DNA of 52,614 bases from Minisyncoccota bacterium (GCA_020628915.1 JAHDEI010000004.1:1-52614), one strand, 5' to 3'; counted from the stretch's first letter, positions 2,413 to 43,887 are shown. Numbers and translations are program-made. The notes: generated by a model not told the origin, from the sequence alone.

Positions 2413-2626
2413 ATTTCTCTCCTTCCATGAGTAGCAGGATGCCTCCTGACCGGTCACTCCGCCGGATTTAAACATCCACACCATTGCAGATATTTTCTAA
2501 AATATATCATAGGGTATTTTTAGGTTTTGTCAAATAATATGAATTTTGTTACAAAAAGAGAATAGCATCAAATTAGAATTTTCATTGATATAATTAGTGC
2601 AGGTTATTTTATAAAAGGAGGTGACA

Positions 2627-3763
2627 ATGTCACGAGTACCAATTATTGCTTTAACGGGCGGTCCCTGTGGAGGGAAAACAACTCTATTGCAGAGACTTGC
2701 GAAACTACTACCCAAGAACGGTATTTCACCACTATTTGTTCCCGAAGCTGCTTCTGAAATTATTATTGAGGCAGGCGGACAATTACCAAAAAACCGAGAA
2801 GAGAATTTTCGTTTTCAAGAAAAGATTTTTAATCGCTCTCTTGCAAATGAACGAGCACAATTATATGAAGCGCAGCAGCTTTTACTTGAGGGGAAGAACC
2901 CTGTTGTTATTTGTGACCGTGGTGTGATGGATGGAAAAGCATATTTTGCAGACCCTTCAGACTTTGGCCACATGCTGAGGTTTCGTTCGGACGTTCAAGA
3001 AATTGCTTGCCGCGATATTCAATATGACGGAGTGATTCATCTCAGGACTGCAGCATATGGAGCCGAAGAGCACTATTCGTGTGAAGACCATGAAACTCGA
3101 TATGAAAATTCGATCGAATCAGCTCAAAAAAGAGACGATCGTATTTTACAAGCATGGATGGGAACCCCACATCTGTCAATAGTGCCAAATAGACCGGGGC
3201 AAACATTTGATGGCAAGATGGACCGAGCAGGACAAGAAGTATTACGCATTCTTGGCATGCCAGTGCCAATGGAGCACGAGCGGCGTTGGTTGGTGAAGCA
3301 GCCTGTATCTATGAATACTCTTGGCTTTTGTGAAGATGTTTTGATTACACAACGGTACCTGGCCACTTCGACTGAACGCCATGTACGACGCGTTAGATCG
3401 CGCTACCCAAAATATCGAACAGACCCAAGATATGCGCATTATTATCTTACTGAAAAAATTGGTTCATCGGGAGGATCATGCCAAGAGCCCGAAAAAGTAA
3501 TCTTTATTAATGAGCACGAACAACTCATCAAAAATGAGGGAGTTGTTGGGTCACCTGTTTCCAAGATTCGTACGTATTTTGTTTATCAAGATCAATACTT
3601 TGAATTGGACTTATTTCAGGATAAACATGAAGGACTTCAAATTTTAGAATTAGAATTATTAAGTCCTGATGAGCCAGTTGATTTGCCTGATTTTTTAGGA
3701 GAATTAATTGAGATCACAGGAGACAAGTCATATTCCAATTATGCACTCGCAACAGCTGCATAA
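2627..3763 (+). CDS. Fusion of a P-loop NTPase (AAA_28 / NadR-kinase-like) with a C-terminal CYTH (CyaB-ThTPase-like) domain
   Basis: Walker A ALTGGPCGGKTT at the N-terminus and a Walker B-like VVICDRG. The C-terminal half opens with the EHERRWLVK (ExExK/R) CYTH signature strand. ATG 2627 sits 5 nt after GGAGG. Confidence 0.7.
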   Translation: MSRVPIIALTGGPCGGKTTLLQRLAKLLPKNGISPLFVPEAASEIIIEAGGQLPKNREENFRFQEKIFNRSLANERAQLYEAQQLLLEGKNPVVICDRGVMDGKAYFADPSDFGHMLRFRSDVQEIACRDIQYDGVIHLRTAAYGAEEHYSCEDHETRYENSIESAQKRDDRILQAWMGTPHLSIVPNRPGQTFDGKMDRAGQEVLRILGMPVPMEHERRWLVKQPVSMNTLGFCEDVLITQRYLATSTERHVRRVRSRYPKYRTDPRYAHYYLTEKIGSSGGSCQEPEKVIFINEHEQLIKNEGVVGSPVSKIRTYFVYQDQYFELDLFQDKHEGLQILELELLSPDEPVDLPDFLGELIEITGDKSYSNYALATAA

Positions 3764-4600: not shown

Positions 4601-4644
4601 TGACAAATTGTTAAAAACACACTATATTGTAGTCAGGATCTTTT
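4601..4644 (+). promoter_or_regulatory. Promoter/operator block, copy 1 (TGACAAATT..TATATT..GTCAGGATCTTT)
   Basis: CTGACA -35-like and TATATT -10-like elements are bracketed by the inverted TGAC/GTCA pair. The block is near-identical to 6577-6619. An extra TGACAAATT box lies at 4579-4587. Confidence 0.6.
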
Positions 4645-4663: not shown

Positions 4664-5266
4664 ATGCACAAGCGACAGAAAATTCTACTTGTTGATATGG
4701 ATGGGGTAATGGCGCGGTATGACAAACGATATCTCGAGCGAGCCACCGAGATCGGCCTCGAGAGGCTTGATCCCGAAGATGTGACAAACTTTTACACAGA
4801 AGAGATTTTTAAACCAGAAGACAGAGAACGACTATATGATCTCTCTTTGGAAAAAGGATTCTTTAGAAACCTTGAGCCATATCCAGGTTGTATCGAAGCG
4901 CTCAATGAACTGTTTGATCACCCCCAATTGCGAGTATTCATTTGTACTGCCCCCAAAATCAAATTTGATAACTGTGTGGGTGAAAAGTACGAATGGGTAC
5001 GAGAGCACCTCGGCGAACGGTTTATCAAACGCATGATGGTAACCAGAGACAAAACAATTGCGTACGGGGACTATCTTATTGATGATAAGCCACAGTTGAG
5101 CGGTGCATTGAAACGACCTGTCTGGCAGCAGATCTATCATGATCGCCCGTACAATCGGGTTGAACACGGAGGCAATCCGGAAACCCCTCGGTTTAGCTGG
5201 GAAAACTGGAGAGAAGAGCTAGGAGCAATCCTTGAGATTGATTTCAGCCAGAAAATCGCTGCATAA
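4664..5266 (+). CDS. 5'(3')-deoxyribonucleotidase (NT5C family, HAD superfamily)
   Basis: HAD motif I LLVDMDGVMA, then GFFRNLEPYPGCIEALNEL, FICTAP, and motif IV DYLIDDKP. AAAGGAG RBS. Confidence 0.85.
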   Translation: MHKRQKILLVDMDGVMARYDKRYLERATEIGLERLDPEDVTNFYTEEIFKPEDRERLYDLSLEKGFFRNLEPYPGCIEALNELFDHPQLRVFICTAPKIKFDNCVGEKYEWVREHLGERFIKRMMVTRDKTIAYGDYLIDDKPQLSGALKRPVWQQIYHDRPYNRVEHGGNPETPRFSWENWREELGAILEIDFSQKIAA

Positions 5267-24885: not shown

Positions 24886-25101
24886 ATGGCTGATATTCAA
24901 GCACTATGCATGAGTTGTAGGGAAGAAGTGGACGGAAAGTCAAAACCTACGATGCAGACTATGCAAAACCCACAAGTAGGACGAATGAAAGATAAAGAAG
25001 GTAACGAAACTAATCGTTACTCTGCTCAAGGTACTTGCGGGACATGTAATGGAAAGATGTTCAAATTCCTTTCAAAGGATGTTGCAGAATCAATGATGTA
25101 A
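24886..25101 (+). CDS. Small four-Cys zinc-ribbon protein (DUF5679-like)
   Basis: 71 aa with a CMSC ... CGTC pair and the G-T-C-x-x-C-N-G-K-M-F-K-F pattern typical of small zinc-ribbon proteins of Actinobacteria and CPR. Confidence 0.6.
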   Translation: MADIQALCMSCREEVDGKSKPTMQTMQNPQVGRMKDKEGNETNRYSAQGTCGTCNGKMFKFLSKDVAESMM

Positions 25102-25173: not shown

Positions 25174-25201
25174 TTGACATAATTAAATTTGAATGTATAA
25201 T
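25174..25201 (+). promoter_or_regulatory. Near-consensus sigma-70 promoter P1
   Basis: TTGACA (25174-25179), 16 nt spacer, TATAAT (25196-25201) preceded by TG. Confidence 0.6.
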
Positions 25202-25253: not shown

Positions 25254-25282
25254 TTGTACATGAGATAATAAGTGTGTATAAT
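25254..25282 (+). promoter_or_regulatory. Sigma-70-type promoter P2 facing the kinase-like operon
   Basis: TTGTAC (25254-25259), 17 nt spacer, TATAAT (25277-25282) preceded by TG. It overlaps a TGTACA palindrome and a DnaA-box-like TGTGTATAA. Confidence 0.55.
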
Positions 25283-25507
25283 ACACTTACTAACACAATA
25301 TCCGCGAGTGAAGTCCCCAGGTGCATAGGGAGCCGTCACTCTTGGGTATTCTCAATACACAAGAGTGATCTTTGAAATGAGATGTACATTCATAATTTAA
25401 ACGATTTATTTGAGATACTGTAAACTTTATGGTATAAAACCTCACGTAAAGAATTATTCTTTTTGTACATTGAAATAAAAGTAAACAAATAGTTATTGGA
25501 GATTCTC

Positions 25508-26329
25508 ATGAATCAAACACAGTCAAAATTAGCAAATTACGACCTTTTAGGTCTAATTGGCGAGACTGCGGACTATCGTGTATATGCTGCATATTGTAAA
25601 AGTGATAGGCGGGAATATTTTCTCAAAATCGCTTCGACAACTGCACATAATGGCATGTTAGAACGTGAAGCATTTGTATTGCGTGATCTCCGTTCAGAAA
25701 TGGAGGAAATTAACAGGCGATACAAAAGATCATCTGGATCAAAGAAAGGTTTGGGCTATAAACGGTGTTTTCCTGAATTGATAGATACATTTATATCTAG
25801 CGAGCAAGGAAACAGACGAGTGAATATCATTGCAATTTACGGGGCAGAATCTATCAAGGATCTGGTTCCAATTGAACAATGGCGTACTCGTGAGCATAAA
25901 CGTATTGATCCCAAATCAAGTGCGTGGATGATGGGAAGACTCCTCAAGATCTTAACGTTCACCAACATCAACGGTGTTGTGAACGAGAAAATCAATGGAG
26001 GAAATATTCTCGTGAATCCCTTTGAACATCATGTTGCACTATTTGATTGGACCCAGGCCCGTTATGTAAACGGAACTGTGCCCAAAAAAATTATTAAACA
26101 TGAAATAATGCAGGCAGCGCAACAAGTCGTCCTCGCTCTTGGGGGAGATCTACAAACAGGAGCGCTACCGCAGAGCGATCAACTCGTCGATAATCGATAT
26201 GCTGATTTCTTGAAACAATTAATGGATGGAAAAATTTCAAATTCGGATCATGCTGGAGAGAAATTTTACCTTCTCTTAGAAGACATCTGGGAGAAAGAAT
26301 TTCATCCGTTTACCACACATAACATCTGA
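25508..26329 (+). CDS. Protein-kinase-fold protein with a degenerate catalytic loop (candidate pseudokinase or atypical kinase)
   Basis: Strand-3 Lys in YFLKIAS, helix-C Glu in LEREAF, GVVNEKINGGNILV aligning with G-x-x-H-R-D-L-K-P-x-N-I-L-V (HRD becomes NEK, Asn kept), and FDW in place of DFG. GGAG lies 6 nt before ATG 25508. Confidence 0.6.
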   Translation: MNQTQSKLANYDLLGLIGETADYRVYAAYCKSDRREYFLKIASTTAHNGMLEREAFVLRDLRSEMEEINRRYKRSSGSKKGLGYKRCFPELIDTFISSEQGNRRVNIIAIYGAESIKDLVPIEQWRTREHKRIDPKSSAWMMGRLLKILTFTNINGVVNEKINGGNILVNPFEHHVALFDWTQARYVNGTVPKKIIKHEIMQAAQQVVLALGGDLQTGALPQSDQLVDNRYADFLKQLMDGKISNSDHAGEKFYLLLEDIWEKEFHPFTTHNI

Positions 26330-26350
26330 CCCCATACAAGGAGAATAGAA

Positions 26351-27475
26351 ATGGGAAAACATACGTTTACACGTACGGCATATGCCGCAACAATGAGCAC
26401 TGCAAAAAAAGCAGGCTCAGCAACACACAGAGGTGAAGAACGAATACGTCGTGGCCAAGGCCTTGACCCTCTTGTTGATCCGGCCGGCAACGGTCTGATT
26501 CGCCGCTCAATGGCGAGAAAAGATCAGCGCGAGGATGGCTTGTGGGAGATGACAGTGGGCACACCCATGCTCGTCGAAACACTCTTGGATACTACAGGTT
26601 CGATGGGAAGCAATGTTCGCATAGCTCTTGATCGACTGCCGCATCTCTATGACCTACTTAAAGAAAGTGACCGAGCAGTCTTGGATCGATACGATCTACA
26701 GATGATCACCTCAATTTTTGGTGATGTGCGCGACGAGTATATTCTGAACCGATCACATGCTGAAATGGGAGACAAAATCGCCGAACAAATGACGATGATG
26801 TACCCAGAAGGAGGCGGAGCCGGCAATGGGAAAGAAGACCCACAATATGGCATATTTGCAGCCGCATACTTAACTGCTGCTGAAACAAATGCCTACGGGC
26901 TTAAGACTTATCATTTTACTATTTCTGATGAGCCTATTTACGAAGAATATGACACCAATACACTCATTCGTGTATTTGGTGACACAGTCTTTGAAAAGGT
27001 TACAGAAAACGGTCACCCAATTTCTCGTGATGAATTACCCGACGTACAACAAGTGATTAATGATTTGCTCACACGAGCAAACGCATTCTTCTTGCAAGTT
27101 GATAATCGGACACCCGTCACAGAACAGTGGTCTCGTTTATACGGTAATGAGAGAGTTATTGCTTTGCCTGATGTAAGGCTACTTCCTCAGGTACAAGCTG
27201 CGGTAATCGGCTTAACCGAAAGCGTTTTGGATCTTGAGACGCTACAGGATTTCCTTGTAGCCAACAAAGTTTCAAAAACAGCAGCAAAGCAAATCGCTCG
27301 ATCTGTTTCTGGTATTCCAATTGGAGCACAGGCCGCTTTACCCGCTTTTGACAAAATCCTCAATGCAGGAGCTTTGTTTAAAAACAAGCGTGATATCAAA
27401 CCTGTTGGTCATCGTGATGATCCAGGTATGGCTATCGACGCAAAGCAGCCTGCCGAGTCTGGCGCCTGGTTATAA
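26351..27475 (+). CDS. von Willebrand factor A (vWA) domain protein with a MIDAS motif
   Basis: LLDTTGSMG (DxTGS MIDAS), a later Thr/Asp positions and FTISDEP. A basic N-terminal extension of about 75 aa. AAGGAG RBS. Confidence 0.7.
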   Translation: MGKHTFTRTAYAATMSTAKKAGSATHRGEERIRRGQGLDPLVDPAGNGLIRRSMARKDQREDGLWEMTVGTPMLVETLLDTTGSMGSNVRIALDRLPHLYDLLKESDRAVLDRYDLQMITSIFGDVRDEYILNRSHAEMGDKIAEQMTMMYPEGGGAGNGKEDPQYGIFAAAYLTAAETNAYGLKTYHFTISDEPIYEEYDTNTLIRVFGDTVFEKVTENGHPISRDELPDVQQVINDLLTRANAFFLQVDNRTPVTEQWSRLYGNERVIALPDVRLLPQVQAAVIGLTESVLDLETLQDFLVANKVSKTAAKQIARSVSGIPIGAQAALPAFDKILNAGALFKNKRDIKPVGHRDDPGMAIDAKQPAESGAWL

Positions 27476-27492
27476 CCAAATAGGAGGTGACC

Positions 27493-28872
27493 ATGAAAAA
27501 ACTATACATGGTTACTGATCTTGGTCCTGGTGATGGAGGCAAAGGTGGGGTAGTTCACAAACTATCTCATATGTCTGGTGCCCACACTATCGTAAAGGTA
27601 GGGGGGGCACAAGGCAGCCACGGTGTTCGTACATCCGCTGGTGATGCATTTGCATTTAGTCAGTTTGGCTGTGGAACATTCGAAGGTGTTCGTACTCATA
27701 TTTCGCCACGGTTTCTTATGGATCCCGAAGGGATCTATAGTGAGGGCATGGCACTACGTTATGAGTCGGGAGTAGATAATCCGTGGGCGTTGTTGTCTAT
27801 TGATGAATCTACTCTTTGTAAAACTCCATTCGATGGAATTGTCTCGAGGATAAAGGAGCTCGCGCTCCGTGATAACCCTCGAGGCACTATCGGAACAGGA
27901 GTCGGACAAGCCTATCGTAGAAACCAGTTGCGTCCCGATCTTTCTGTTTTTGCGTGTGATTTATATTCACCAGATCTCAGAGACAAACTCGAGATCATTC
28001 GTGAATACACAATAGACCTTCTGAACCCATTCGTTGAGGGAGACTTTTTCCCAGACGACCAGCAGCAGCTCAGCAGAGATTTGTCTTTGTTGAATGATCC
28101 TGGCCTCATCGATCATGTTATTAATCGATGGAGATTTGTGGCAAAAGAATGTCAAATTGTTGATACGGATTATTTCGCAAATGATTTGTTAGCTAAAGAC
28201 GGGATTGTGGTGGTTGAGAGTTCGCACGGCATCCTTACAGATTGTTATACCGGATTCCACCCTCATACCAGTGCAATTCGCACATTGCCTCATTTCACTA
28301 AGGCGATGTTCGAGCAGGCCCGGTATGACGGAGAAATAGTAAGCATCGGTGTTCATCGTGCTTATCAAATTCGTCATGGCGCAGGTCCAATGCCAACCCA
28401 CGATCCACAGATGGGGGAACGATTGCTGCCTGGCAGCAACAAGGACTCTAATCGGTGGCAGGGTGACGTTCGTGTGGGGCCTCTTGATCTTGTTGCTATG
28501 CGTTATGCATTAGCAGCGAGCGGAGAAGGTGCATACGATGGTCTTGCAATTACCTGGTTTGACCAAGTTCAGAAAAATGGACAATGGCAGTATGCAAACA
28601 AGTACGAGGGACCTCTTGATAATCAGTATTTTACTGAGTCAGGAGATATTCGTCTGCGTGTTGGTGATGATCGGGCACAACTTGATCATCTTGCTGCCTT
28701 AACTAAAAAACTGCAGGCCGTTAGGCCTACGGTAGAAACGGTTCCGCTCAATAGCGGTGCTACTCTGGACCAGCAGTTTGATTTGGTTGCAGAGACTCTT
28801 GGTGAACACCTTGGTGTTCCCGTGCGCATGATGTCGTTTGGCCCAACCGAACAAGACAAAATGTGTAAATAA
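27493..28872 (+). CDS. Adenylosuccinate-synthetase (PurA/PurZ) superfamily ligase, highly divergent
   Basis: Collinear with PurA: GDGGKGG (GDEGKGK), GGAQGSHG (GGHNAGH), GTIGTGVGQAY (GTTGRGIGPAY), ESSHGILTD (EGAQGTLLD), AYQIRHGAGPMPT (AYSTRVGAGPFPT), and FGPTEQD (TGPDRTE). The Asp-binding TTGRRRR and guanine-binding TKLD motifs are altered. AGGAGG RBS before ATG 27493. Confidence 0.85.
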   Translation: MKKLYMVTDLGPGDGGKGGVVHKLSHMSGAHTIVKVGGAQGSHGVRTSAGDAFAFSQFGCGTFEGVRTHISPRFLMDPEGIYSEGMALRYESGVDNPWALLSIDESTLCKTPFDGIVSRIKELALRDNPRGTIGTGVGQAYRRNQLRPDLSVFACDLYSPDLRDKLEIIREYTIDLLNPFVEGDFFPDDQQQLSRDLSLLNDPGLIDHVINRWRFVAKECQIVDTDYFANDLLAKDGIVVVESSHGILTDCYTGFHPHTSAIRTLPHFTKAMFEQARYDGEIVSIGVHRAYQIRHGAGPMPTHDPQMGERLLPGSNKDSNRWQGDVRVGPLDLVAMRYALAASGEGAYDGLAITWFDQVQKNGQWQYANKYEGPLDNQYFTESGDIRLRVGDDRAQLDHLAALTKKLQAVRPTVETVPLNSGATLDQQFDLVAETLGEHLGVPVRMMSFGPTEQDKMCK

Positions 28873-28903
28873 CTTTAACTTTACAGAAGAAAGGAGAACC
28901 GTC

Positions 28904-29875
28904 ATGGAAGACGCTCTCAAGAAAAAACTAACCGGAAAAGACGTTGGCATGACAAAGGATCAAGTTAAAAAACTTGAAACTGAAGCCGGCGTTCAAACCG
29001 AAGCAGACCTGGCAATGCTTTCTGATACTGAAATTAAACAGTACTCAGGCTGTACTCCAGTCGTTGCAAAAAAGGCACAAGCATCGGTACAACCTAAAGA
29101 GCCCGCAGCTGATCCCAAGGCCGAACTTGACGATGGGGCTGCACCAAGCTCTGCTCACGTTAATGGTTTTGCCCAACAGTTGGGGATTGATCCGATGATG
29201 GCCATGATGTTCTTTAACGGAACTCTTGGGGATGATATGGATCTCTCATCAATGATGCCGATTTCAATGGTTGTTGAAGGTTACAATCCAAAAGTCCGGA
29301 ACATGTTTTTAATGGCTATGGGTCATTTTGAACGACGATTCGGAGTACCAATTGTTGTAATTGACAGCAACGGGGGTATTAATAAGGCTCTAACTGCCGA
29401 ATATATTCAATCGTTGGAAGAAGGCCATGACCCAATGGAAAGCGCAATCTATCTTGACGGAGACGGCGAGCCGTATGAGCTCATTCGTGTCGGCGTTGAT
29501 GCACAAAGTGTATACGATGCTGATCCACTCAAGCCAGAAAAAGCCTTGCCTAAAAATGATATAGGCACAGGCCGAATTAAATGGAAAGGTGTCCCGCTTG
29601 AGGTACGACAAGTTGCATACTATGCCGTTACCCAGACTAAAGAGCTTGATCCATCAAATGATGCTCATCTCACTTGGTTGCGTGATAATGTAACAAAAGA
29701 CTCTAAGCGTCTTATGTTCCATGGACAAGCGCCAAAAGCGATTGCAGCCTACAATGATGCAGCTCGCACCGGTTCTCTGCCAACACTTCGTGTCATGCTT
29801 TCTCGTGGCCCACGCCGCAAAGAAATCATGCCTAGACGTCGAAGAAGGCCAGCTGGTTTAGCCGCTGATCTTTAA
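28904..29875 (+). CDS. Hypothetical protein (323 aa) with an Arg-rich C-terminal tail
   Basis: AAGGAG RBS 7 nt before ATG 28904. Last gene of the operon. Ends in RGPRRKEIMPRRRRRPAGLAADL. No family recognised. Confidence 0.65.
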   Translation: MEDALKKKLTGKDVGMTKDQVKKLETEAGVQTEADLAMLSDTEIKQYSGCTPVVAKKAQASVQPKEPAADPKAELDDGAAPSSAHVNGFAQQLGIDPMMAMMFFNGTLGDDMDLSSMMPISMVVEGYNPKVRNMFLMAMGHFERRFGVPIVVIDSNGGINKALTAEYIQSLEEGHDPMESAIYLDGDGEPYELIRVGVDAQSVYDADPLKPEKALPKNDIGTGRIKWKGVPLEVRQVAYYAVTQTKELDPSNDAHLTWLRDNVTKDSKRLMFHGQAPKAIAAYNDAARTGSLPTLRVMLSRGPRRKEIMPRRRRRPAGLAADL

Positions 29876-29881
29876 ACATAC

Positions 29882-29911
29882 AACCAGACAAGGCAACTTG
29901 TCTGGTTTTTC
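29882..29911 (+). terminator. Intrinsic terminator of the four-gene operon
   Basis: AACCAGACA-aggcaact-TGTCTGGTT followed by TTT. Confidence 0.8.
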
Positions 29912-29944: not shown

Positions 29945-31828
29945 TTAAACATTTGGCAAAAAGACACGCTTGAGGAAAATTTCCGATGCTAGGCGTCTAT
30001 ATTGTGGATCATAAAATGCAGCATGACCATCAATGGCGTCTCCATGTTTAGTGTCCATCGGGCTTTTGATTGGGTAGTATCGTTCAAAACCTTTGTGGAG
30101 CAGTCTATATTGAACAGCGTCTCGCTCTATTTCCTCGAGCCATCGATCCTTGGTTGGTTTTCCATCAAGTTCTGCCTCAGGCGACTGTAGATAGTTAGGA
30201 AGAAGGTCATGGTAAAGAGTTTTGATGCTTTCACGGTCACCTTTCCATGCAGAACCAAGTAAGACATGCGCCCAGCTGCTGCTGCCGTCTGAGATCGTTG
30301 GATTTTCCCAGTCGTGAACTGATAGTCCGTTCTCGTTTTGATCTAACCAGAATTGTACAGCTTTTCCATCAATTTTTTCATGAGAGAAGACATTTTTTAA
30401 AGATTCTTCTAGTCGCTCTTTTTCTTCTCTTGGTGTACCTGGTTTGATAAAAACAGCTACGTCAGCGTCAGCTTCTGAGCGACCGTACCCTTTTAGTTGG
30501 GATCCAAATACTAATGTTGCAGGGTAGACGTGCTGCCCGAGATACGGATCGTTTTTGATTTGTTCCGACATAGATTCTACTTCTGCCAAGAAAGGGGCAA
30601 TTGATTCTAGGTTTTTCGAAAAGTCACCATTGAGATTTGGAACGTTAATCCCTGCTTGGTCCAGGACTTGTTTGCTAACAATTCCTTGGCTATGTAAATG
30701 AGAATACAATTTTGACAATGCGTCGTATGTTTCTGCAGTTTTTGATAGTTCTGTTGCAGAGGTGACCCAGTCTTTGTTTTGTTCAAATAGATCTGGATTA
30801 TCTGATGTCGCGATAGTAAGTGCTTCGACACATGCGACCAGTGAATCAACATCAAGAGAAGCTGCATCAGGCAATGAAGAGCCATTGAGGAGGTTTTGGC
30901 TAACAGTTGACGCAGCCTCTAGAATCGCTTTTTCAAAAGCTTGTTTTTTCAGCCACGCGTCACGTGCCACGGTTGTTCCCGCATCCTCTCTCTGGTCAAT
31001 CTCATGAATCTTTGTAGAAAGAATTTCTAACAGTTCTATTGTTTTTACTGGATCCATGGATTCATTGCTGTCTGTTTCAAATGTTTGCGCCGTAAGCTCG
31101 TGATACGAACCATTAAGGTGTATGTCGCGGGAGTCTCGCAACAGATCGATTTCTGCTTCAGAAATATTTCCCATATCCAACATTACTTTAAATGAATCGA
31201 TGATTCCTTGTTTTACCAAAATATCATCACTCTTTTCTGCGTACTGCACGGCTTCCTGGAAACTCATGTGTCCGTGTTCTACCAGCCCTGGAATCAAATG
31301 AGTAGCTTTGACTACTCGTGGATGGTCCTCTGTACGCAATTCAGGTTCCAAAATATTTCCATCAACAAAATTTGCCCGAACGTCATACGCTGTTAGTTGT
31401 GATTCCCATGCACGCCTGTAACTCTCAGAGAATGATTGTGCCGCTTTGGCTACAAGTGGGCTTTCGACATTGGAATCCTTTGAGGGAATTAATTCAAACG
31501 GCATATAAAGAGCGAGTCGACCATAGCCTGGTTCTTTGTCCATATACTGAGCAATACGAGTGAATGTTTCAGCAAGAGCTATTTCACTTATCTCACCATC
31601 AGCAAAGGAATCCATAACGTTTTTGCCAACTGGGACCGCCTGGACCAGCTGCTTATACGACTCTATGGCTGCGCTTTGTTCCTGAACTTGTTTGAGAAAC
31701 TCAGGGTTTTGAGAAATAGAAGTAGGCCAAATTTCAGCAGCTAGTTTTGGGTTAGTGAGAGACTCAATTGCTGGTTTTTCGAATGCTTCGATAGGAGGCT
31801 GCTCTTTGTTTTTAATAGACTCGATCAT
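29945..31828 (-). CDS. Large protein (627 aa) with a C-terminal Pol-beta-type nucleotidyltransferase motif
   Basis: FGSQLKGYGRSEADADVAVF (nt 30449-30508) fits the G-S-x(n)-D-x-D NTP_transf_2 signature. About 440 aa at the N-terminus are unassigned. Start set at ATG 31828, 6 nt after a TATAAT, so it is a leaderless candidate. The ORF-track GTG at 31846 lies inside the promoter. Confidence 0.65.
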   Translation of the reverse strand: MIESIKNKEQPPIEAFEKPAIESLTNPKLAAEIWPTSISQNPEFLKQVQEQSAAIESYKQLVQAVPVGKNVMDSFADGEISEIALAETFTRIAQYMDKEPGYGRLALYMPFELIPSKDSNVESPLVAKAAQSFSESYRRAWESQLTAYDVRANFVDGNILEPELRTEDHPRVVKATHLIPGLVEHGHMSFQEAVQYAEKSDDILVKQGIIDSFKVMLDMGNISEAEIDLLRDSRDIHLNGSYHELTAQTFETDSNESMDPVKTIELLEILSTKIHEIDQREDAGTTVARDAWLKKQAFEKAILEAASTVSQNLLNGSSLPDAASLDVDSLVACVEALTIATSDNPDLFEQNKDWVTSATELSKTAETYDALSKLYSHLHSQGIVSKQVLDQAGINVPNLNGDFSKNLESIAPFLAEVESMSEQIKNDPYLGQHVYPATLVFGSQLKGYGRSEADADVAVFIKPGTPREEKERLEESLKNVFSHEKIDGKAVQFWLDQNENGLSVHDWENPTISDGSSSWAHVLLGSAWKGDRESIKTLYHDLLPNYLQSPEAELDGKPTKDRWLEEIERDAVQYRLLHKGFERYYPIKSPMDTKHGDAIDGHAAFYDPQYRRLASEIFLKRVFLPNV

Positions 31829-36183: not shown

Positions 36184-36408
36184 ATTGCTAGTACGTTTGT
36201 GCTACTATTTTGTATACAGCTCCTCATACTACTGAGCACCGCCTAACCCCTCATTTGAGGATATGGCGGATAAGACCAAAAGAAGTAAAAAACCCATCGT
36301 AAGGGTTTGCTTCTTTTGGCCATGTCGGGAAACTGGCATGGAGGCTTAGGCCTCGCCTTGCGGTGGGCTTTTTGTATGAAAAATCCATTGCGTTAATAAA
36401 TAATAACT

Positions 36409-41702: not shown

Positions 41703-42638
41703 TTACGCAGGGATGCTTTGTAATCGCAGGTACTCTTCGAGTATTTTCCCATGATCAGAATACATTTGATTCGTCGGTGCGTCATTTTTGGAAACAACAA
41801 GCGGTTCGGTTTTGTCCGGTTCACCACGAGGAGTTCCAGCAACAGTAGCAACGAACACTGTTGTAAAGTATTCAACACCACTTTGTTTTGTGCGAGGATC
41901 ACGACCAGGAGTGTCATATCGACCAAACGGTTTAATTGAGGTAATAGACAGGCCTGTCTCTTCTTGTGTTTCACGGATCGCAGCGGCCTGAGCACTTGTG
42001 TCTTCTGGGTCAATTTTCCCACCAATTAATGCTGCTTGGTTTGTGTCCAAACGCTTAATTAAGACCAAATCACCAGTGTCTTCATGTGTTGCGATAACGT
42101 CAACACATTCAATAATTGGATTTGGCAGCTTGCCGTAGGTGACAAGTGATTGTACGGGAGCATCACCCAAAACATGGCGACCACCTAATTCTGCAAGCTC
42201 TATAACGAATGCGAAACCAGCAACGGTCCCCCCAAGCTTTTCAACCAACTGGGAAGCGGCTCGAGCGGTACCGCCGGTTGCAAGCAAGTCATCAATTACC
42301 AAGACCGTGTCGTTGGCGTCAACTGCATGCTTCTGCATCTCAACCGTGTTTGATCCATATTCTAGATCATAGGACACCGAAACGGTTTCTCCTGGCAACT
42401 TGCCAGGCTTGCGCACCATAACCACTGGCACGTTGATTTCAATCGACAATAGTGTCGCGAATAAAAATCCACGAGCATCCAGGGCTGCAATTTTTGTGAC
42501 CTTGCCTCGCCACTTTTGTGCAAGCGAGTCAGTAATGAAACGAAGTGCGCTGGGTGTCAGTACTGATCCAATATCTTTAAATGCAATTCCTTCTTTTGGG
42601 AAGTCGTGCACCGTTGTGATTATGTTTTTGAGATTCAT
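41703..42638 (-). CDS. apt: Adenine phosphoribosyltransferase fused to a C-terminal Nudix hydrolase domain
   Basis: N-terminal 170 aa carry DFPKEGIAFKD, ALDARGF, and the VLVIDDLLATGGTA PRPP loop. The C-terminal part has the Nudix box GGKIDPEDTSAQAAAIRETQEETG (nt 41952-42023). Confidence 0.85.
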   Translation of the reverse strand: MNLKNIITTVHDFPKEGIAFKDIGSVLTPSALRFITDSLAQKWRGKVTKIAALDARGFLFATLLSIEINVPVVMVRKPGKLPGETVSVSYDLEYGSNTVEMQKHAVDANDTVLVIDDLLATGGTARAASQLVEKLGGTVAGFAFVIELAELGGRHVLGDAPVQSLVTYGKLPNPIIECVDVIATHEDTGDLVLIKRLDTNQAALIGGKIDPEDTSAQAAAIRETQEETGLSITSIKPFGRYDTPGRDPRTKQSGVEYFTTVFVATVAGTPRGEPDKTEPLVVSKNDAPTNQMYSDHGKILEEYLRLQSIPA

Positions 42639-42767: not shown

Positions 42768-43781
42768 CTACATATACTGACTGATGCTTCCGCCTTTCTG
42801 GCATTGTTCTTTAATTGCATCTGCAAGCAGTGCATCACAATCAACCACAGTAAGCCAGTCGCTGTGTTTCTCCATAAATTTTTTGGCACGAGGAATTGTA
42901 TTTGTTATATACACAGGAATTCCAGCCCGACCAAATTCTTCAACTGACTTTTCATCACTGAAGATACCATGGGTAGCACACATAATGACATCTTTTGCAC
43001 CAAGTCCTTTTATGCGAAGAGCAGCTTTTCTAGCTGTTCCTCCAGTATCAATCATGTCGTCATACATAATGACCGTCTTGCCTTTAACGCTTGGCCCGAT
43101 GACTTTTCCGATCTCAACGTTTTTGGAATCACGTTTTTTTTCAAAGACACAAACCGGTGCGTTAAACATGTGTTTGGAAAAGCGGTCTGCTCGTACACTG
43201 CTGCCGAAATCTGGCGCCACAATACGTAGGTCCTTTTGGTCTACGTTTAGTTTTTTCTTGAGAACATCTGCAAATAAGCGCCGAGAATTGAGGTTGTCCA
43301 GAGCCCCTTTAAAGAATCCTTGAGCCTGTTCAGTATGCAAGTCCATAGTGATGATGTGTCTTACCAAATCATATACCGCGACAAGGTTAAAAAAAGCTGA
43401 ACCCGAGATGGGACTGCGCGGCTCATCCTTTCGATCCTGTCTTTGATAGGGGATAAATGGTAGAACCAACGTTATATCTTGAACTGATGCTCGAGTAAGC
43501 ATGTCACAGGTTAGGTACATCATCATTGTTTGGATATTTGGGTTTGGCCACTGCATAGGCATGAGCAAAAATGCTTTCTGTCCTCGAATGGTATGAGGGC
43601 AGGTGGGTTTGAGCTCAAGACTTGTGAACTCTTGTTGCTTTATTTGGTACAGAGGCATATCCAGTCCGTACTGACGATTCAGTATTTTTTGTATTCGTTT
43701 GTCCATACCATGCATCCCAGGTGTCGACAGTAAAACAAAGTCTCCGTTGGGATTTCCATTTCTTTTTGCTGGTTTGGTCAT
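42768..43781 (-). CDS. prs: Ribose-phosphate pyrophosphokinase
   Basis: PYQRQDRK, DLHTEQAQGFF, and VIMYDDMIDTGGTA (PRPP binding loop). ATG 43781 lies 6 nt after GGAG. Confidence 0.92.
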   Translation of the reverse strand: MTKPAKRNGNPNGDFVLLSTPGMHGMDKRIQKILNRQYGLDMPLYQIKQQEFTSLELKPTCPHTIRGQKAFLLMPMQWPNPNIQTMMMYLTCDMLTRASVQDITLVLPFIPYQRQDRKDEPRSPISGSAFFNLVAVYDLVRHIITMDLHTEQAQGFFKGALDNLNSRRLFADVLKKKLNVDQKDLRIVAPDFGSSVRADRFSKHMFNAPVCVFEKKRDSKNVEIGKVIGPSVKGKTVIMYDDMIDTGGTARKAALRIKGLGAKDVIMCATHGIFSDEKSVEEFGRAGIPVYITNTIPRAKKFMEKHSDWLTVVDCDALLADAIKEQCQKGGSISQYM

Positions 43782-43887
43782 GTAATACTCCATCTTGTAA
43801 ATGATCAAATTCCTCGCGAAGTATAGCATGTTGACAGATCAAGTTACAATATTTGTAAATATGTAACAGAAAAGATACAATAAGCGC

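What the first reader, a model, noticed from the sequence alone, without database searches (positions are those of the whole stretch)
25508..29875. Candidate undescribed four-gene system: degenerate kinase-fold protein, vWA/MIDAS protein, divergent PurA-like ligase and Arg-tailed unknown protein
Seen in the sequence: four co-directional genes are separated by only 21, 17 and 31 nt, and each has its own AGGAG-type RBS. Two strong promoters and a long structured leader precede them, and a strong terminator closes them. The block is GC-richer than its surroundings and lies in an accessory region. Established knowledge: vWA (TerY-like) proteins paired with Ser/Thr kinases are the hallmark of TerY-P-type triads (vWA, kinase, PP2C phosphatase), which have been reported as anti-phage modules. 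PurA-family enzymes phosphorylate the 6-oxo group of a purine nucleotide and displace the phosphate with an amine. Phages use the paralogue PurZ to make 2-aminoadenine precursors. Inference: no phosphatase is present here, and a PurA-like ligase with altered substrate-binding motifs takes that place, while the kinase-like partner has lost its HRD aspartate. I do not know a described system with this combination. Plausible roles are synthesis of a modified purine nucleotide, or of a nucleotide-amino-acid or nucleotide-protein conjugate, acting as a signal, toxin or depletion mechanism. In that model the vWA/pseudokinase pair would be the sensor or scaffold and the Arg-tailed protein the effector or substrate.
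Basis: partly seen in the sequence, partly recalled or inferred. Interest (0 to 1): 0.85.

Follow-up and report, generated by a model that had tools for sequence, protein, structure and literature searches.

The report
NAD-regulated vWA and PurA-like ligase module
The four genes are real and belong to a conserved, undescribed module built on an obligate pair (a vWA protein plus a remodelled adenylosuccinate-synthetase-like ligase) that recurs in hundreds of phages and candidate-phyla bacteria, and in those bacteria it shares the repressor site of the NAD-salvage genes.

Summary
Four co-directional genes have 21, 17 and 31 nt gaps, their own RBSs, a perfect sigma-70 promoter and a bidirectional terminator.

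Domain calls were confirmed:
- P1 is a kinase-fold pseudokinase.
- P2 has a vWA/MIDAS fold (AF2 pLDDT 92).
- P3 is a PurA-superfamily ligase that lacks the aspartate loop.
- P4 has an HhH/SAM-like N-terminus and a body with no structural match.

Corrections to the finding:
- The conserved unit also includes the convergent 627-aa nucleotidyltransferase P5 (29945-31828, minus strand).
- P4 is a swappable slot with two body types, and is sometimes absent.
- The invariant core is vWA + PurA-like. It is adjacent in 72 of 74 viral contigs, and both genes hit 219 GenBank phage records with the same taxon breakdown.
- The leader is not detectably structured. It carries a 21-bp NrtR-type palindrome (25269-25289) over the -10 box.

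The same palindrome precedes nrtR, pncA, nadE and ADP-ribosylglycohydrolase genes beside the cluster in relatives. It lies upstream of P1 in 25-26 of 69 loci, against a background of 0.001-0.003 per 400 nt.

The TerY-P analogy fails: there is no active kinase and no phosphatase. The best reading is an NAD/ADP-ribose-responsive nucleotide-ligase module of unknown chemistry. No description was found in the literature searched.

The parts
25174..25201 (+). Promoter 1, TTGACA-16 nt-TATAAT (12/12 match)
   Evidence: TTGACAA is present upstream of P1 in 45 of 69 related loci.
25255..25282 (+). Promoter 2, TGTACA-16 nt-TATAAT (10/12 match)
   Evidence: Its -10 box lies inside the palindromic operator.
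25269..25289 (.). Candidate NrtR operator TAAGTGTGTATAATACACTTA: a 21-bp palindrome with a GT-N7-AC core
   Evidence: It is the only match in 52.6 kb (chance expectation 0.22). The same box precedes nrtR, pncA, nadE and ARH genes and P1 in relatives. The architecture matches the NrtR boxes described in PMC2330246.
25290..25507 (+). Long 5' leader with no detectable conserved structure
   Evidence: Fold z-score -1.64. No credible Rfam match.
25508..26329 (+). P1: 273-aa kinase-fold pseudokinase (RIO/CK2-like C-lobe). It has no HRD Asp, and the VAIK Lys is not conserved.
   Evidence: PHROG 3043 'kinase' 6e-13. The profile hits CK2 at about 1e-9. Alignment. Homologous to Fludd gp260, E=4e-18.
26351..27475 (+). 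P2: 374-aa vWA/MIDAS protein with an invariant DTTGSMG motif, a conserved N-terminal Met-Gly and a C-terminal Trp-Leu
   Evidence: AF2 pLDDT 92.4. Foldseek matches integrin beta-I, vWF A3 and NorD. 809 homologues. PHROG 2971. Terminus statistics.
27493..28872 (+). P3: 459-aa PurA-superfamily P-loop ligase. GDGGKGG, His41, Asp333 and SxGP are kept. Asn38 is replaced by Gln. The aspartate-binding loop is replaced by NRWQG-DVRVG.
   Evidence: Pfam PF00709 4e-32. NCBIfam PurA scores 64 bits against a cut-off of 402, and PurZ 12 against 300. PDB PurA hits at 1e-10. Motif alignment.
28904..29875 (+). P4: 323-aa protein with an N-terminal HhH/SAM-like domain, a linker, a body of unknown fold, and an Arg-rich tail ending in a G(I/L)G...L-type motif
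   Evidence: 170 homologues. SAM_TNK hits in relatives. AF2 pLDDT 85.7 with no PDB or BFVD match beyond the HhH domain. A second body type occupies this slot in 42 loci.
29882..29907 (.). Bidirectional intrinsic terminator between P4 and P5
29945..31828 (-). P5: 627-aa protein with an N-terminal conserved region, helical repeats, and an MNT/Pol-beta-type nucleotidyltransferase domain (GSx(10)DxD). It is convergent to the operon.
   Evidence: Pfam Polbeta and NTP_transf_2 (weak) and NCBIfam MntA. The profile hits HI0073 and MntA. It is syntenic in nearly all loci.

Best explanation
This is the Patescibacteria (CPR) version of a conserved, previously undescribed module.

Composition. The invariant core is a vWA/MIDAS protein (P2) encoded immediately upstream of a PurA-superfamily ligase (P3). 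In CPR bacteria the pair has acquired a catalytically dead kinase-fold partner (P1) and a swappable fourth protein (P4). P4 has a shared HhH/SAM-like N-terminal domain and alternative bodies. A convergent MNT-type nucleotidyltransferase (P5) completes the unit.

Shown. The gene linkage, the folds and motifs, and a 21-bp NrtR-type palindrome over the -10 box. That palindrome also precedes nrtR, pncA, nadE and ADP-ribosylglycohydrolase genes next to the cluster in relatives.

Inferred.
1. The operon is repressed by an NrtR-family regulator and is induced when ADP-ribose, the breakdown product of NAD+, accumulates. The module would then act in adenine-nucleotide and NAD homeostasis when NAD+ is being destroyed. 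In phages this would be a counter-measure. In CPR cells it would be a stress or conflict response.
2. P3 keeps the AdSS chemistry. GTP phosphorylates an oxo or hydroxyl group of a nucleotide acceptor, and an amine then displaces the phosphate.
3. The amine is not L-aspartate, and the acceptor is probably not a plain 5'-mononucleotide.
4. P2, with P1, is a stoichiometric partner, scaffold or substrate presenter. It may bind C-terminal carboxylate tails through its MIDAS site.
5. P4 is an exchangeable nucleic-acid-binding or effector arm.

The exact substrate and product are unknown.
For: Linkage.
- P1-P2-P3 are in the same order in about 70 of 79 GTDB loci. P5 is convergent in nearly all of them (examples).
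- The same triad, in the same order, occurs in Bixzunavirus phages and in viral contig L090.
- The vWA + PurA-like pair is adjacent in 72 of 74 IMG/VR loci, out of 362 confirmed vWA relatives.
- In GenBank phages each member of the pair hits 219 records with the same taxon breakdown.

Folds and motifs.

NAD link.
- The recurrent neighbours are NrtR-like genes (14 distinct loci plus the closest relative, L093), then PncA (8), PncB (6), ARH (4) and NadE (2-4).
- The operator occurs once in the window, over the -10 box.
- A PWM trained only on sites away from P1 finds a site within 400 nt upstream of P1 in 25-26 of 69 loci. The background is 0.001-0.003 per 400 nt.
- The box architecture equals the published NrtR consensus type, and ADP-ribose releases NrtR from DNA in vitro (PMC2330246).
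- In Rhizobium phage RHph_Y65 the pair lies 3-5 kb from a PRTase-like gene and an NMNAT/NUDIX gene.

Signs of importance in phages: an intein sits in the MIDAS-proximal strand of Fludd gp261, and an HNH gene is inserted in L090.
Against: - No biochemical datum exists. No tool result links P3 chemically to NAD or ADP-ribose.
- The operator was detected in only about 37% of loci. An NrtR-family gene lies within 7 kb in only about 20%. The window itself holds no nrtR gene.
- NrtR-family regulators can control non-NAD pathways, for example AraR (one search list).
- Most phage copies of the pair are not next to NAD genes. In Fludd and in some viral contigs the neighbours are RNA-repair-type genes: PNKP phosphatase, RlaP, Ro-like and Band-7.
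- The swappable P4, the EAD7/EAD9 fusions of distant P4-body relatives and an RM/OLD neighbourhood in L005 fit a conflict system at least as well as a metabolic one.
Confidence: 0.45

Rival explanations
1. Protein-nucleotide conjugation. P3 uses the alpha-amine of the N-terminal glycine of its vWA partner in place of aspartate. After Met removal that terminus reads Gly, or Gly-Gly-Gly in phages. The product would be an N6-(peptidyl)-purine nucleotide adduct on P2. This could operate inside either the NAD-response frame or the defence frame.
For: - The N-terminal Met-Gly is kept in 46 of 53 CPR P2 sequences and 71 of 76 phage vWA sequences (mostly MGGG). This holds although the two groups are only about 22-27% identical.
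- The ligase is always encoded next to the vWA gene.
- The Asp-binding loop is replaced in every vWA-linked PurA-like protein, while the catalytic P-loop Asp and His41 are kept.
- The first residues of P2 are modelled as a flexible coil.
Against: - The support is purely correlative. A conserved N-terminal Gly can be structural or can reflect start-site constraints.
- No complex model or mass-spectrometry evidence exists.
- No precedent is known to me for a PurA-family enzyme acting on a protein amine.
Confidence: 0.17
2. Anti-phage or inter-organism conflict system. The vWA-pseudokinase pair senses an invader. The ligase, with the NTase, makes a modified nucleotide signal or toxin. P4 is the exchangeable effector.
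For: - The cassette has a patchy, mobile distribution with unrelated flanks.
- P4 has a shared adaptor-like N-terminal domain and alternative bodies.
- Distant relatives of the P4 body are fused to Effector-associated domains EAD7 and EAD9.
- P5 resembles MntA/MNT-type NTases and gave weak PADLOC PDC-S09 hits.
- An RM/OLD neighbourhood occurs in L005.
Against: - P2, P3 and P4 gave no PADLOC model hit.
- The core pair is above all a phage gene pair. That points to offence or metabolism rather than host defence.
- Sequence conservation is unusually high for a defence system, at about 50% identity across CPR classes.
- The operon shares its operator with NAD-salvage genes.
- TerY-P defining features are not met.
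Confidence: 0.18
3. Nucleic-acid repair or modification module. P3 and P5 act on RNA or DNA ends or bases, and P4 (HhH domain plus basic tail) brings in the nucleic acid. The NAD link would come from NAD-dependent RNA or DNA repair chemistry.
For: - The P4 N-terminus matches the Rad51/RadA (HhH)2 domain, and its tail is Arg-rich.
- In Fludd the triad lies between a PNKP-type phosphatase and an RlaP NTase. The phage also has an RNA ligase and a Ro-like protein.
- Ro/TROVE-like and Band-7 genes recur near the pair in viral contigs.
- A tRNA_lig_CPD-like gene lies near L006.
Against: - No RNA-repair family recurs around the CPR loci.
- P5 is not homologous to RlaP (hhalign probability 0.1).
- Most phage copies lack P4 and P5 altogether.
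- PurA-family enzymes are known only on free nucleotides.
Confidence: 0.12
4. Ordinary purine metabolism. P3 is simply a divergent adenylosuccinate synthetase of a reduced genome, and the neighbouring genes are unrelated.
For: Pfam PF00709 scores above its gathering cut-off over the full length. The window carries other nucleotide-salvage genes: NT5C, a PRTase-NUDIX fusion and Prs.
Against: - Scores are far below every PurA equivalog cut-off (64 bits against 402).
- Asp-loop residues T300, T301, R303 and R305, together with N38 and T129, are replaced.
- P3 is strictly co-inherited with a vWA protein in phages and in CPR bacteria.
Confidence: 0.04

Closest known systems
Adenylosuccinate synthetase PurA (EC 6.3.4.4) and the phage paralogue PurZ
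   Same: The match to PF00709 runs over the full length. The GDxGKG P-loop with the catalytic Asp is kept, as are His41, the guanine-specifying Asp of the (T)xxD motif and the SxGP motif. The module therefore probably works by NTP-dependent O-phosphorylation followed by amine displacement.
   Different: P3 scores 64 bits against the PurA equivalog cut-off of 402, and 12 bits against the PurZ cut-off of 300. The aspartate-binding loop TTGRRRR is replaced by (W)QG-x-(V/F)R. Asn38 becomes Gln and Thr129 becomes Ile, Val or Cys. P3 is always paired with a vWA protein, and no DatZ or MazZ partners are present. The RefSeq label '2-aminooxy adenylosuccinate synthetase' on the phage homologues looks like annotation transfer.
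TerY-P triad (TerY-type vWA + Ser/Thr kinase + PP2C phosphatase)
   Same: A vWA/MIDAS protein is encoded next to a kinase-fold protein.
   Different: The kinase fold here lacks the HRD Asp, and its VAIK Lys is not conserved. No PP2C occurs in any of about 75 neighbourhoods. P2 hits no TerY or vWA sequence model. The ancestral core has no kinase at all.
NrtR regulon of NAD metabolism (Rodionov et al. 2008, PMC2330246)
   Same: A 21-bp palindrome with a GT-N7-AC core lies over the promoter. The same box sits in front of nrtR, pncA, nadE and ARH genes adjacent to the cluster, and an NrtR-family gene lies directly upstream of P1 in the closest relative.
   Different: No pseudokinase, vWA or PurA-like genes are named among the NAD-pathway targets in the passages of the NrtR paper that I read. 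Binding and the ADP-ribose response are untested here. The window contains no nrtR gene.
Phage NAD+ reconstitution pathways NARP1, NARP2 and NARP3
   Same: These are compact, phage-borne, metabolite-centred gene sets tied to NAD+ breakdown products. The pair lies near NMNAT/NUDIX and PRTase-like genes in a Rhizobium phage.
   Different: None of the defining enzymes is present: Adps + Namat, Nampt + Nmnat, or PnuC + NadR. No evidence shows that this module makes NAD+.
MntA/MNT-type minimal nucleotidyltransferases (HI0073 family) of type VII toxin-antitoxin systems (relevant to P5)
   Same: P5 has the GSx(10)DxD Pol-beta NTase core. The profile hits 1no5 (HI0073) and 5yep (MntA).
   Different: P5 is about 627 aa, with large conserved N- and C-terminal regions and helical repeats. 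No HEPN partner gene was seen. All scores are below the curated cut-offs.

Membership tests
TerY-P triad | vWA protein of the TerY type | tested here: inconclusive
   The vWA fold is confirmed by structure. No TerY or vWA sequence family matches in Pfam, NCBIfam or PDB sequences.
TerY-P triad | Active Ser/Thr protein kinase with VAIK Lys, HRD Asp and DFG Asp | tested here: not met
   HRD is replaced by N-E-K (s-v-g in the family consensus). The VAIK position is K or Q. The DFG-like Asp is not invariant.
TerY-P triad | PP2C phosphatase in the operon | tested here: not met
   None is present in the window block. None appears among the recurrent neighbours of 74 loci.
Adenylosuccinate synthetase PurA (equivalog) | Score above the curated equivalog cut-off | tested here: not met
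   NF002223 scores 64 bits against 402, and TIGR00184 scores 53 against 396. Only the superfamily model PF00709 passes.
Adenylosuccinate synthetase PurA (equivalog) | Aspartate-binding loop (T300, T301, R303, R305) and IMP contacts (N38, T129, Q224) | tested here: not met
   The loop is replaced by NRWQG-DVRVG.
PurZ (2-aminoadenine pathway) | NF038379 score above cut-off, with DatZ/MazZ partners | tested here: not met
   12.3 bits against a cut-off of 300. No HD or MazG-type partner appears among the conserved neighbours.
NrtR regulon | 21-bp palindromic operator with a GT-N7-AC core in the promoter region, shared with NAD genes | tested here: met
   The box lies at 25269-25289 over the -10 element. 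It occurs upstream of P1 in 25-26 of 69 loci using a PWM trained elsewhere. The architecture follows PMC2330246.
NrtR regulon | NrtR protein binds the site and is released by ADP-ribose | not testable with these tools
   This needs EMSA or in vivo reporters. Only the adjacency of NrtR-family genes is seen.
NARP1/2/3 NAD+ reconstitution | Adps + Namat, or Nampt + Nmnat, or PnuC + NadR | tested here: not met
   None of these families is encoded in the block.
Known defence systems (PADLOC-DB v2) | Model hits to the system's proteins | tested here: not met
   There are only weak kinase hits (PD-T4-6, E about 1e-3) and weak NTase hits (PDC-S09). P2, P3 and P4 hit nothing.
MNT/MntA nucleotidyltransferase (P5) | GSx(n)DxD NTase motif | tested here: met
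   GSQLKGYGRSEADADV is present. G441, S442, D453 and D455 are invariant in 24 sequences.
MNT/MntA nucleotidyltransferase (P5) | Cognate HEPN toxin partner | not tested
   No adjacent small HEPN gene was noticed in the gene tables. No dedicated search was run.

The most novel reading that the evidence does not exclude
The vWA + PurA-like pair is a new enzyme-substrate or enzyme-cofactor system. A remodelled adenylosuccinate-synthetase fold uses GTP to couple a purine or ADP-ribose-derived nucleotide to a non-aspartate amine. One candidate amine is the invariant N-terminal glycine of the vWA partner, which would be a new kind of protein nucleotidylation. Another is nicotinamide, which would be a single-enzyme route back to NAD+. 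Phages and CPR bacteria would deploy this chemistry when NAD+ is being destroyed.
Probability: 0.2. Interest if true: 0.95.

Novelty: categorically new. Interest (0 to 1): 0.8.

Why it matters
The result would matter for several reasons.
- It would assign a first context to two large 'hypothetical' families: phrog_2971 and the vWA-linked PurA-like clade inside phrog_1211. These occur in all Bixzunavirus mycobacteriophages found here, in hundreds of uncultivated large phages, and in many Patescibacteria.
- It would show that the adenylosuccinate-synthetase fold has been recruited for chemistry other than IMP + aspartate.
- It would extend the NrtR/ADP-ribose regulon beyond classical NAD salvage.
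- NAD+ depletion is a central theme of phage-bacterium conflict, and CPR bacteria depend on scavenged nucleotides. A new ADP-ribose-responsive nucleotide-ligase module would therefore be directly relevant to both fields.
- It is experimentally tractable in Mycobacterium smegmatis phages.
- It also corrects a likely mis-annotation: the RefSeq 'PurZ' label on cluster C phages.

Tried and rejected
1. Riboswitch or structured leader. Rfam gave nothing at gathering scores, and only a meaningless miRNA hit at E=0.5. The fold z-score was -1.64. Rejected.
2. P4 fold identification. The AF2 model (pLDDT 85.7) was searched against PDB and BFVD. Only the N-terminal HhH domain matches. HHalign shows that the two P4 types share only that domain. 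A profile search of 1.84 billion representatives found a wider, unannotated family of about 290 aa. Two members are fused to EAD7 or EAD9, but Pfam and PHROGs give no name. The contexts were mostly too short to read.
3. P2 by sequence. The profile search against PDB sequences found nothing. Only the structure search worked.
4. Is Fludd gp3 (an NTase) the P5 equivalent? No. It belongs to the RlaP family, and the hhalign probability is 0.1.
5. P1, P4 and P5 HMMs against 80 viral loci gave no hits.
6. Is NARP3 or another published NAD pathway the same as this module? No.
7. Literature searches on PurA-like, vWA and kinase combinations returned only a genome announcement. The jumbo-phage survey does not mention the pair.
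8. The TGTACA repeats in the leader were tested as a conserved motif. They are not conserved (9 of 69 loci).
9. Prophage or structural module. The flanks are trigger factor, a class II aaRS, a SpoU methylase, MauE and a multicopper oxidase. Rejected.
10. The P5 homologue search gave only 36 hits and no annotation.

Full report
1. WHAT IS IN THE SEQUENCE

The four + strand ORFs are as described:
- P1: 25508-26329, 273 aa
- P2: 26351-27475, 374 aa
- P3: 27493-28872, 459 aa
- P4: 28904-29875, 323 aa

The gaps are 21, 17 and 31 nt. Each gene has a GGAG-type RBS, read directly. A perfect TTGACA-16-TATAAT promoter lies at 25174-25201, and a 10/12 promoter at 25255-25282. A bidirectional terminator lies at 29882-29907.

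GC is 0.45-0.46 from 26 to 30 kb and 0.36-0.39 just upstream. P1 itself falls in a 0.36 bin, and other bins of the window reach 0.445-0.451, so the compositional argument is weak.

The flanks are chromosomal genes: a SpoU methylase, a class II aminoacyl-tRNA synthetase and trigger factor upstream, and MauE and a multicopper oxidase downstream. The window also holds two tRNAs and a LOOT RNA.

2. WHAT THE PROTEINS ARE

P1 is a pseudokinase.
- It matches PHROG 3043 'kinase' at 6e-13.
- A family profile hits CK2-type kinases in PDB sequences at about 1e-9.
- In the alignment the HRD triplet is N-E-K, and s-v-g in the family consensus. The VAIK lysine alternates with Gln. Even the DFG-like Asp is not invariant.

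P2 is a vWA/MIDAS protein.
- It has no Pfam, NCBIfam or PDB-sequence match.
- An AF2 model built on 53 homologues reaches pLDDT 92.4.
- Foldseek finds integrin beta-I, vWF-A3 and NorD vWA domains at probability 1.00.
- DTTGSMG is invariant.

P3 is a remodelled PurA-superfamily ligase.
- It matches PF00709 over its full length at 4e-32.
- It scores 64 bits against the PurA equivalog cut-off of 402, and 12 bits against the PurZ cut-off of 300.
- Kept: the GDxGKG P-loop Asp and Lys, His41, the Asp of the guanine-specificity motif, and SxGP.
- Changed: Asn38 to Gln, Thr129 to Ile, and Gln224 to His.
- The aspartate loop TTGRRRR is replaced by NRWQG-DVRVG.

P4 is mostly of unknown fold.
- It hits no family.
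- Relatives hit SAM_TNK or HHH_5 at the N-terminus.
- The AF2 model (pLDDT 85.7) matches only Rad51/RadA-type (HhH)2 domains. The body has no PDB or BFVD neighbour.

3. THE UNIT IS LARGER, AND ITS CORE IS SMALLER, THAN FOUR GENES

P2 has 809 homologues, all 'hypothetical'. They are about 50% identical across Patescibacteria classes.

Gene tables for three lineages show the same arrangement in unrelated flanks. It comprises genes of about 275, 385, 462 (PF00709) and 340-405 aa, followed by a convergent gene of about 570-660 aa with weak Pol-beta NTase hits.

A scan of one genome per GTDB species found 106 confirmed loci, of which 79 were fetched. Nearly all are Patescibacteria MAGs. By tblastn:
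- P1-P2-P3 are adjacent and collinear in about 70 loci.
- The homologue of the window's 29945-31828 minus-strand gene (P5) is convergent downstream wherever the contig extends.

P5 has invariant G441/S442...D453xD455, and its profile hits HI0073 and MntA.

The P4 slot is variable.
- 13 loci carry the window type, with the tail RTGSLPTLRVMLSRxPRRxExMPRRR.
- 42 loci carry a different body of 366-459 aa.
- About 8-10 loci have no gene there.
- HHalign shows that the two types share only the 64-column N-terminal domain, at probability 97.9.
- Most members of both types carry a G(I/L/V)G motif in the last 35 residues (73 of 95), and more than half end in Leu.

4. PHAGES

P3 hits 219 GenBank phage records: 201 Mycobacterium (Bixzunavirus, cluster C), 10 Rhizobium and 6 Vibrio.

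In phage Fludd the order is gp260 'Ser/Thr kinase', gp261 hypothetical, gp262 'PurA-like'.
- gp260 is homologous to P1 at 4e-18.
- gp261 is homologous to P2 at 3e-9.
- The phage kinase-fold proteins also lack the HRD Asp, and they carry an N-terminal J-domain with an HPD motif.
- gp261 is interrupted by an intein (C...SN|C) exactly at the MIDAS-proximal strand.

A profile of phage-type vWA proteins found 362 confirmed relatives in IMG/VR. In 72 of the 74 fetched loci with room, a PurA-like gene follows immediately on the same strand. No P1, P4 or P5 homologue is detectable in those loci. A coiled-coil ORF of about 126 aa precedes the vWA gene in 53 of 79 loci.

In GenBank phages the vWA query also hits 219 records with the same taxon breakdown as the ligase query.

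The vWA + PurA-like pair is therefore the invariant core. All vWA-linked ligases share the replaced Asp loop and Asn38-to-Gln. The vWA proteins keep an N-terminal Met-Gly in 46 of 53 CPR sequences and 71 of 76 phage sequences, mostly MGGG in phages. They usually end in Leu, which is Trp-Leu in CPR.

5. THE NAD CONNECTION

I clustered all ORFs within 4 kb of the cassette in 74 loci. The recurrent neighbours are:
- NrtR-like NUDIX + winged-helix regulators: 14 distinct loci
- PncA-like nicotinamidase: 8
- PncB-like nicotinate PRTase: 6
- ADP-ribosylglycohydrolase: 4
- NadE: 2-4

In the closest relative, a 722-kb contig whose P4 is 80% identical, an NrtR-family gene sits directly upstream of P1.

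K-mer enrichment in the P1 upstream regions led to a palindrome, T[TA]AGTGT-N7-ACACT[AT]A.
- In the window it occurs once, at 25269-25289, over the -10 box of the second promoter. The chance expectation is 0.22.
- The same box lies in front of nrtR, pncA, nadE and ARH genes next to the cassette.
- A weight matrix trained only on sites outside the P1 upstream regions finds a site within 400 nt upstream of P1 in 25-26 of 69 loci. The background is 0.001-0.003 per 400 nt elsewhere (the earlier matrix gave 27 of 69).

Rodionov et al. describe NrtR boxes as 21-bp palindromes with a GT-N7-AC core. They also found that ADP-ribose releases NrtR from DNA (PMC2330246).

On the phage side there is one independent hint. 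In Rhizobium phage RHph_Y65 the pair lies 3-5 kb from a PRTase-like gene and an NMNAT/NUDIX gene.

Against a simple NAD reading:
- In Fludd the triad sits between a PNKP-type phosphatase and an RlaP NTase.
- Ro-like and Band-7 genes recur near the pair in some viral contigs.

6. HOW IT MOST LIKELY WORKS

Shown:
- an obligate vWA + PurA-like pair
- the CPR additions P1, P4 and P5
- an NrtR-type operator shared with NAD-salvage genes

Inferred:
- NrtR represses the operon, and ADP-ribose induces it.
- P3 retains GTP-dependent O-phosphorylation and amine displacement, but uses a non-aspartate amine and a changed acceptor.
- P2, with P1, is a partner, scaffold or substrate.
- P4 is an exchangeable nucleic-acid-binding or effector arm.
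- P5 adds a nucleotidyl-transfer step.

I give the general model a confidence of about 0.45.

Rivals (details in their own section):
- protein N-terminal conjugation onto the vWA glycine: 0.17
- nucleic-acid repair or modification: 0.12
- ordinary PurA: 0.04

7. COMPARISON WITH KNOWN SYSTEMS

- TerY-P is not met. There is no active kinase, no PP2C and no TerY sequence signal.
- P3 is not a PurA or PurZ equivalog.
- It is not NARP1, NARP2 or NARP3.
- PADLOC has no system-level hit.
- The literature searches and the jumbo-phage survey returned nothing on the pair.

I therefore rate the module as categorically new at the system level. Its chemistry is unknown, and an existing description outside the searchable library cannot be excluded.

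Noticed in passing
L001 4200-5984 (Mycobacterium phage Fludd gp261): The phage vWA homologue is interrupted by an intein of about 270 aa (starts with Cys, ends ...ASSN|C). It is inserted in the strand that carries the MIDAS Asp. Other cluster C phages such as Bxz1 gp248 lack it.
   Followed up: partly
L001 3091-4164 and L090 8267-9220: The phage versions of the pseudokinase carry an N-terminal J-domain with an HPD motif (weak Pfam DnaJ hit in L090). The CPR versions lack it. This suggests Hsp70 recruitment in phages.
   Followed up: partly
L090 9217-9792: An HNH homing-endonuclease gene is inserted between the kinase-like and vWA genes of an uncultivated phage contig.
   Followed up: no
window 36240-36354 (+): A LOOT RNA (Rfam RF03000) scores 77 bits, well above its gathering score. 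It is unrelated to the finding.
   Followed up: no
window 4605-4625, upstream of 4664-5266: A weaker NrtR-box-like site (15 bits) lies about 40 nt upstream of an NT5C-type 5'-nucleotidase gene. Nearby is an AAA_28 (NadR-kinase-like) protein at 2621-3763. These are possibly further regulon members.
   Followed up: partly
window 41703-42638 (-) and 42768-43829 (-): A phosphoribosyltransferase-NUDIX fusion protein lies next to a PRPP synthetase. These are more nucleotide or NAD-salvage-type genes in the same window.
   Followed up: no
window 24886-25101 (+): A small 71-aa Cys-rich ORF (weak DUF5679 hit) occupies the position where the closest relative (L093) has the nrtR-family gene.
   Followed up: no
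L099-L178 (IMG/VR loci), about 400 nt upstream of the vWA gene: A coiled-coil ORF of about 126 aa precedes the vWA + PurA-like pair in 53 of 79 viral loci. It may be a third phage-specific component.
   Followed up: partly
P0306, P0352 (remote relatives of the P4 body): Two distant homologues of the P4 body domain are fused to Effector-associated domains EAD7 and EAD9. A family of about 290 aa with the same HhH + body layout exists outside the cassette, once in a phage-like contig (L095).
   Followed up: partly
RefSeq records of cluster C mycobacteriophages (e.g. NC_041993.1, NC_023737.1): The PurA-like gene is labelled '2-aminooxy adenylosuccinate synthetase' (PurZ) in RefSeq but 'PurA-like' in GenBank. 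Fludd gp262 shares the replaced Asp loop with the window's P3, which itself scores far below the PurZ model. The PurZ label therefore looks like over-annotation.
   Followed up: partly
L018 9697-9717: In one locus a second NrtR-type box lies just upstream of the P4-slot gene. This suggests that P4 can have its own regulated promoter.
   Followed up: no
record titles of L009, L045, L055, L056, L031, L041: A few cluster-bearing MAGs are labelled Gammaproteobacteria, Bdellovibrionales, Omnitrophota or Fimivivens. The proteins are typical of the CPR clade, so these may be mis-binned or mis-labelled contigs.
   Followed up: no
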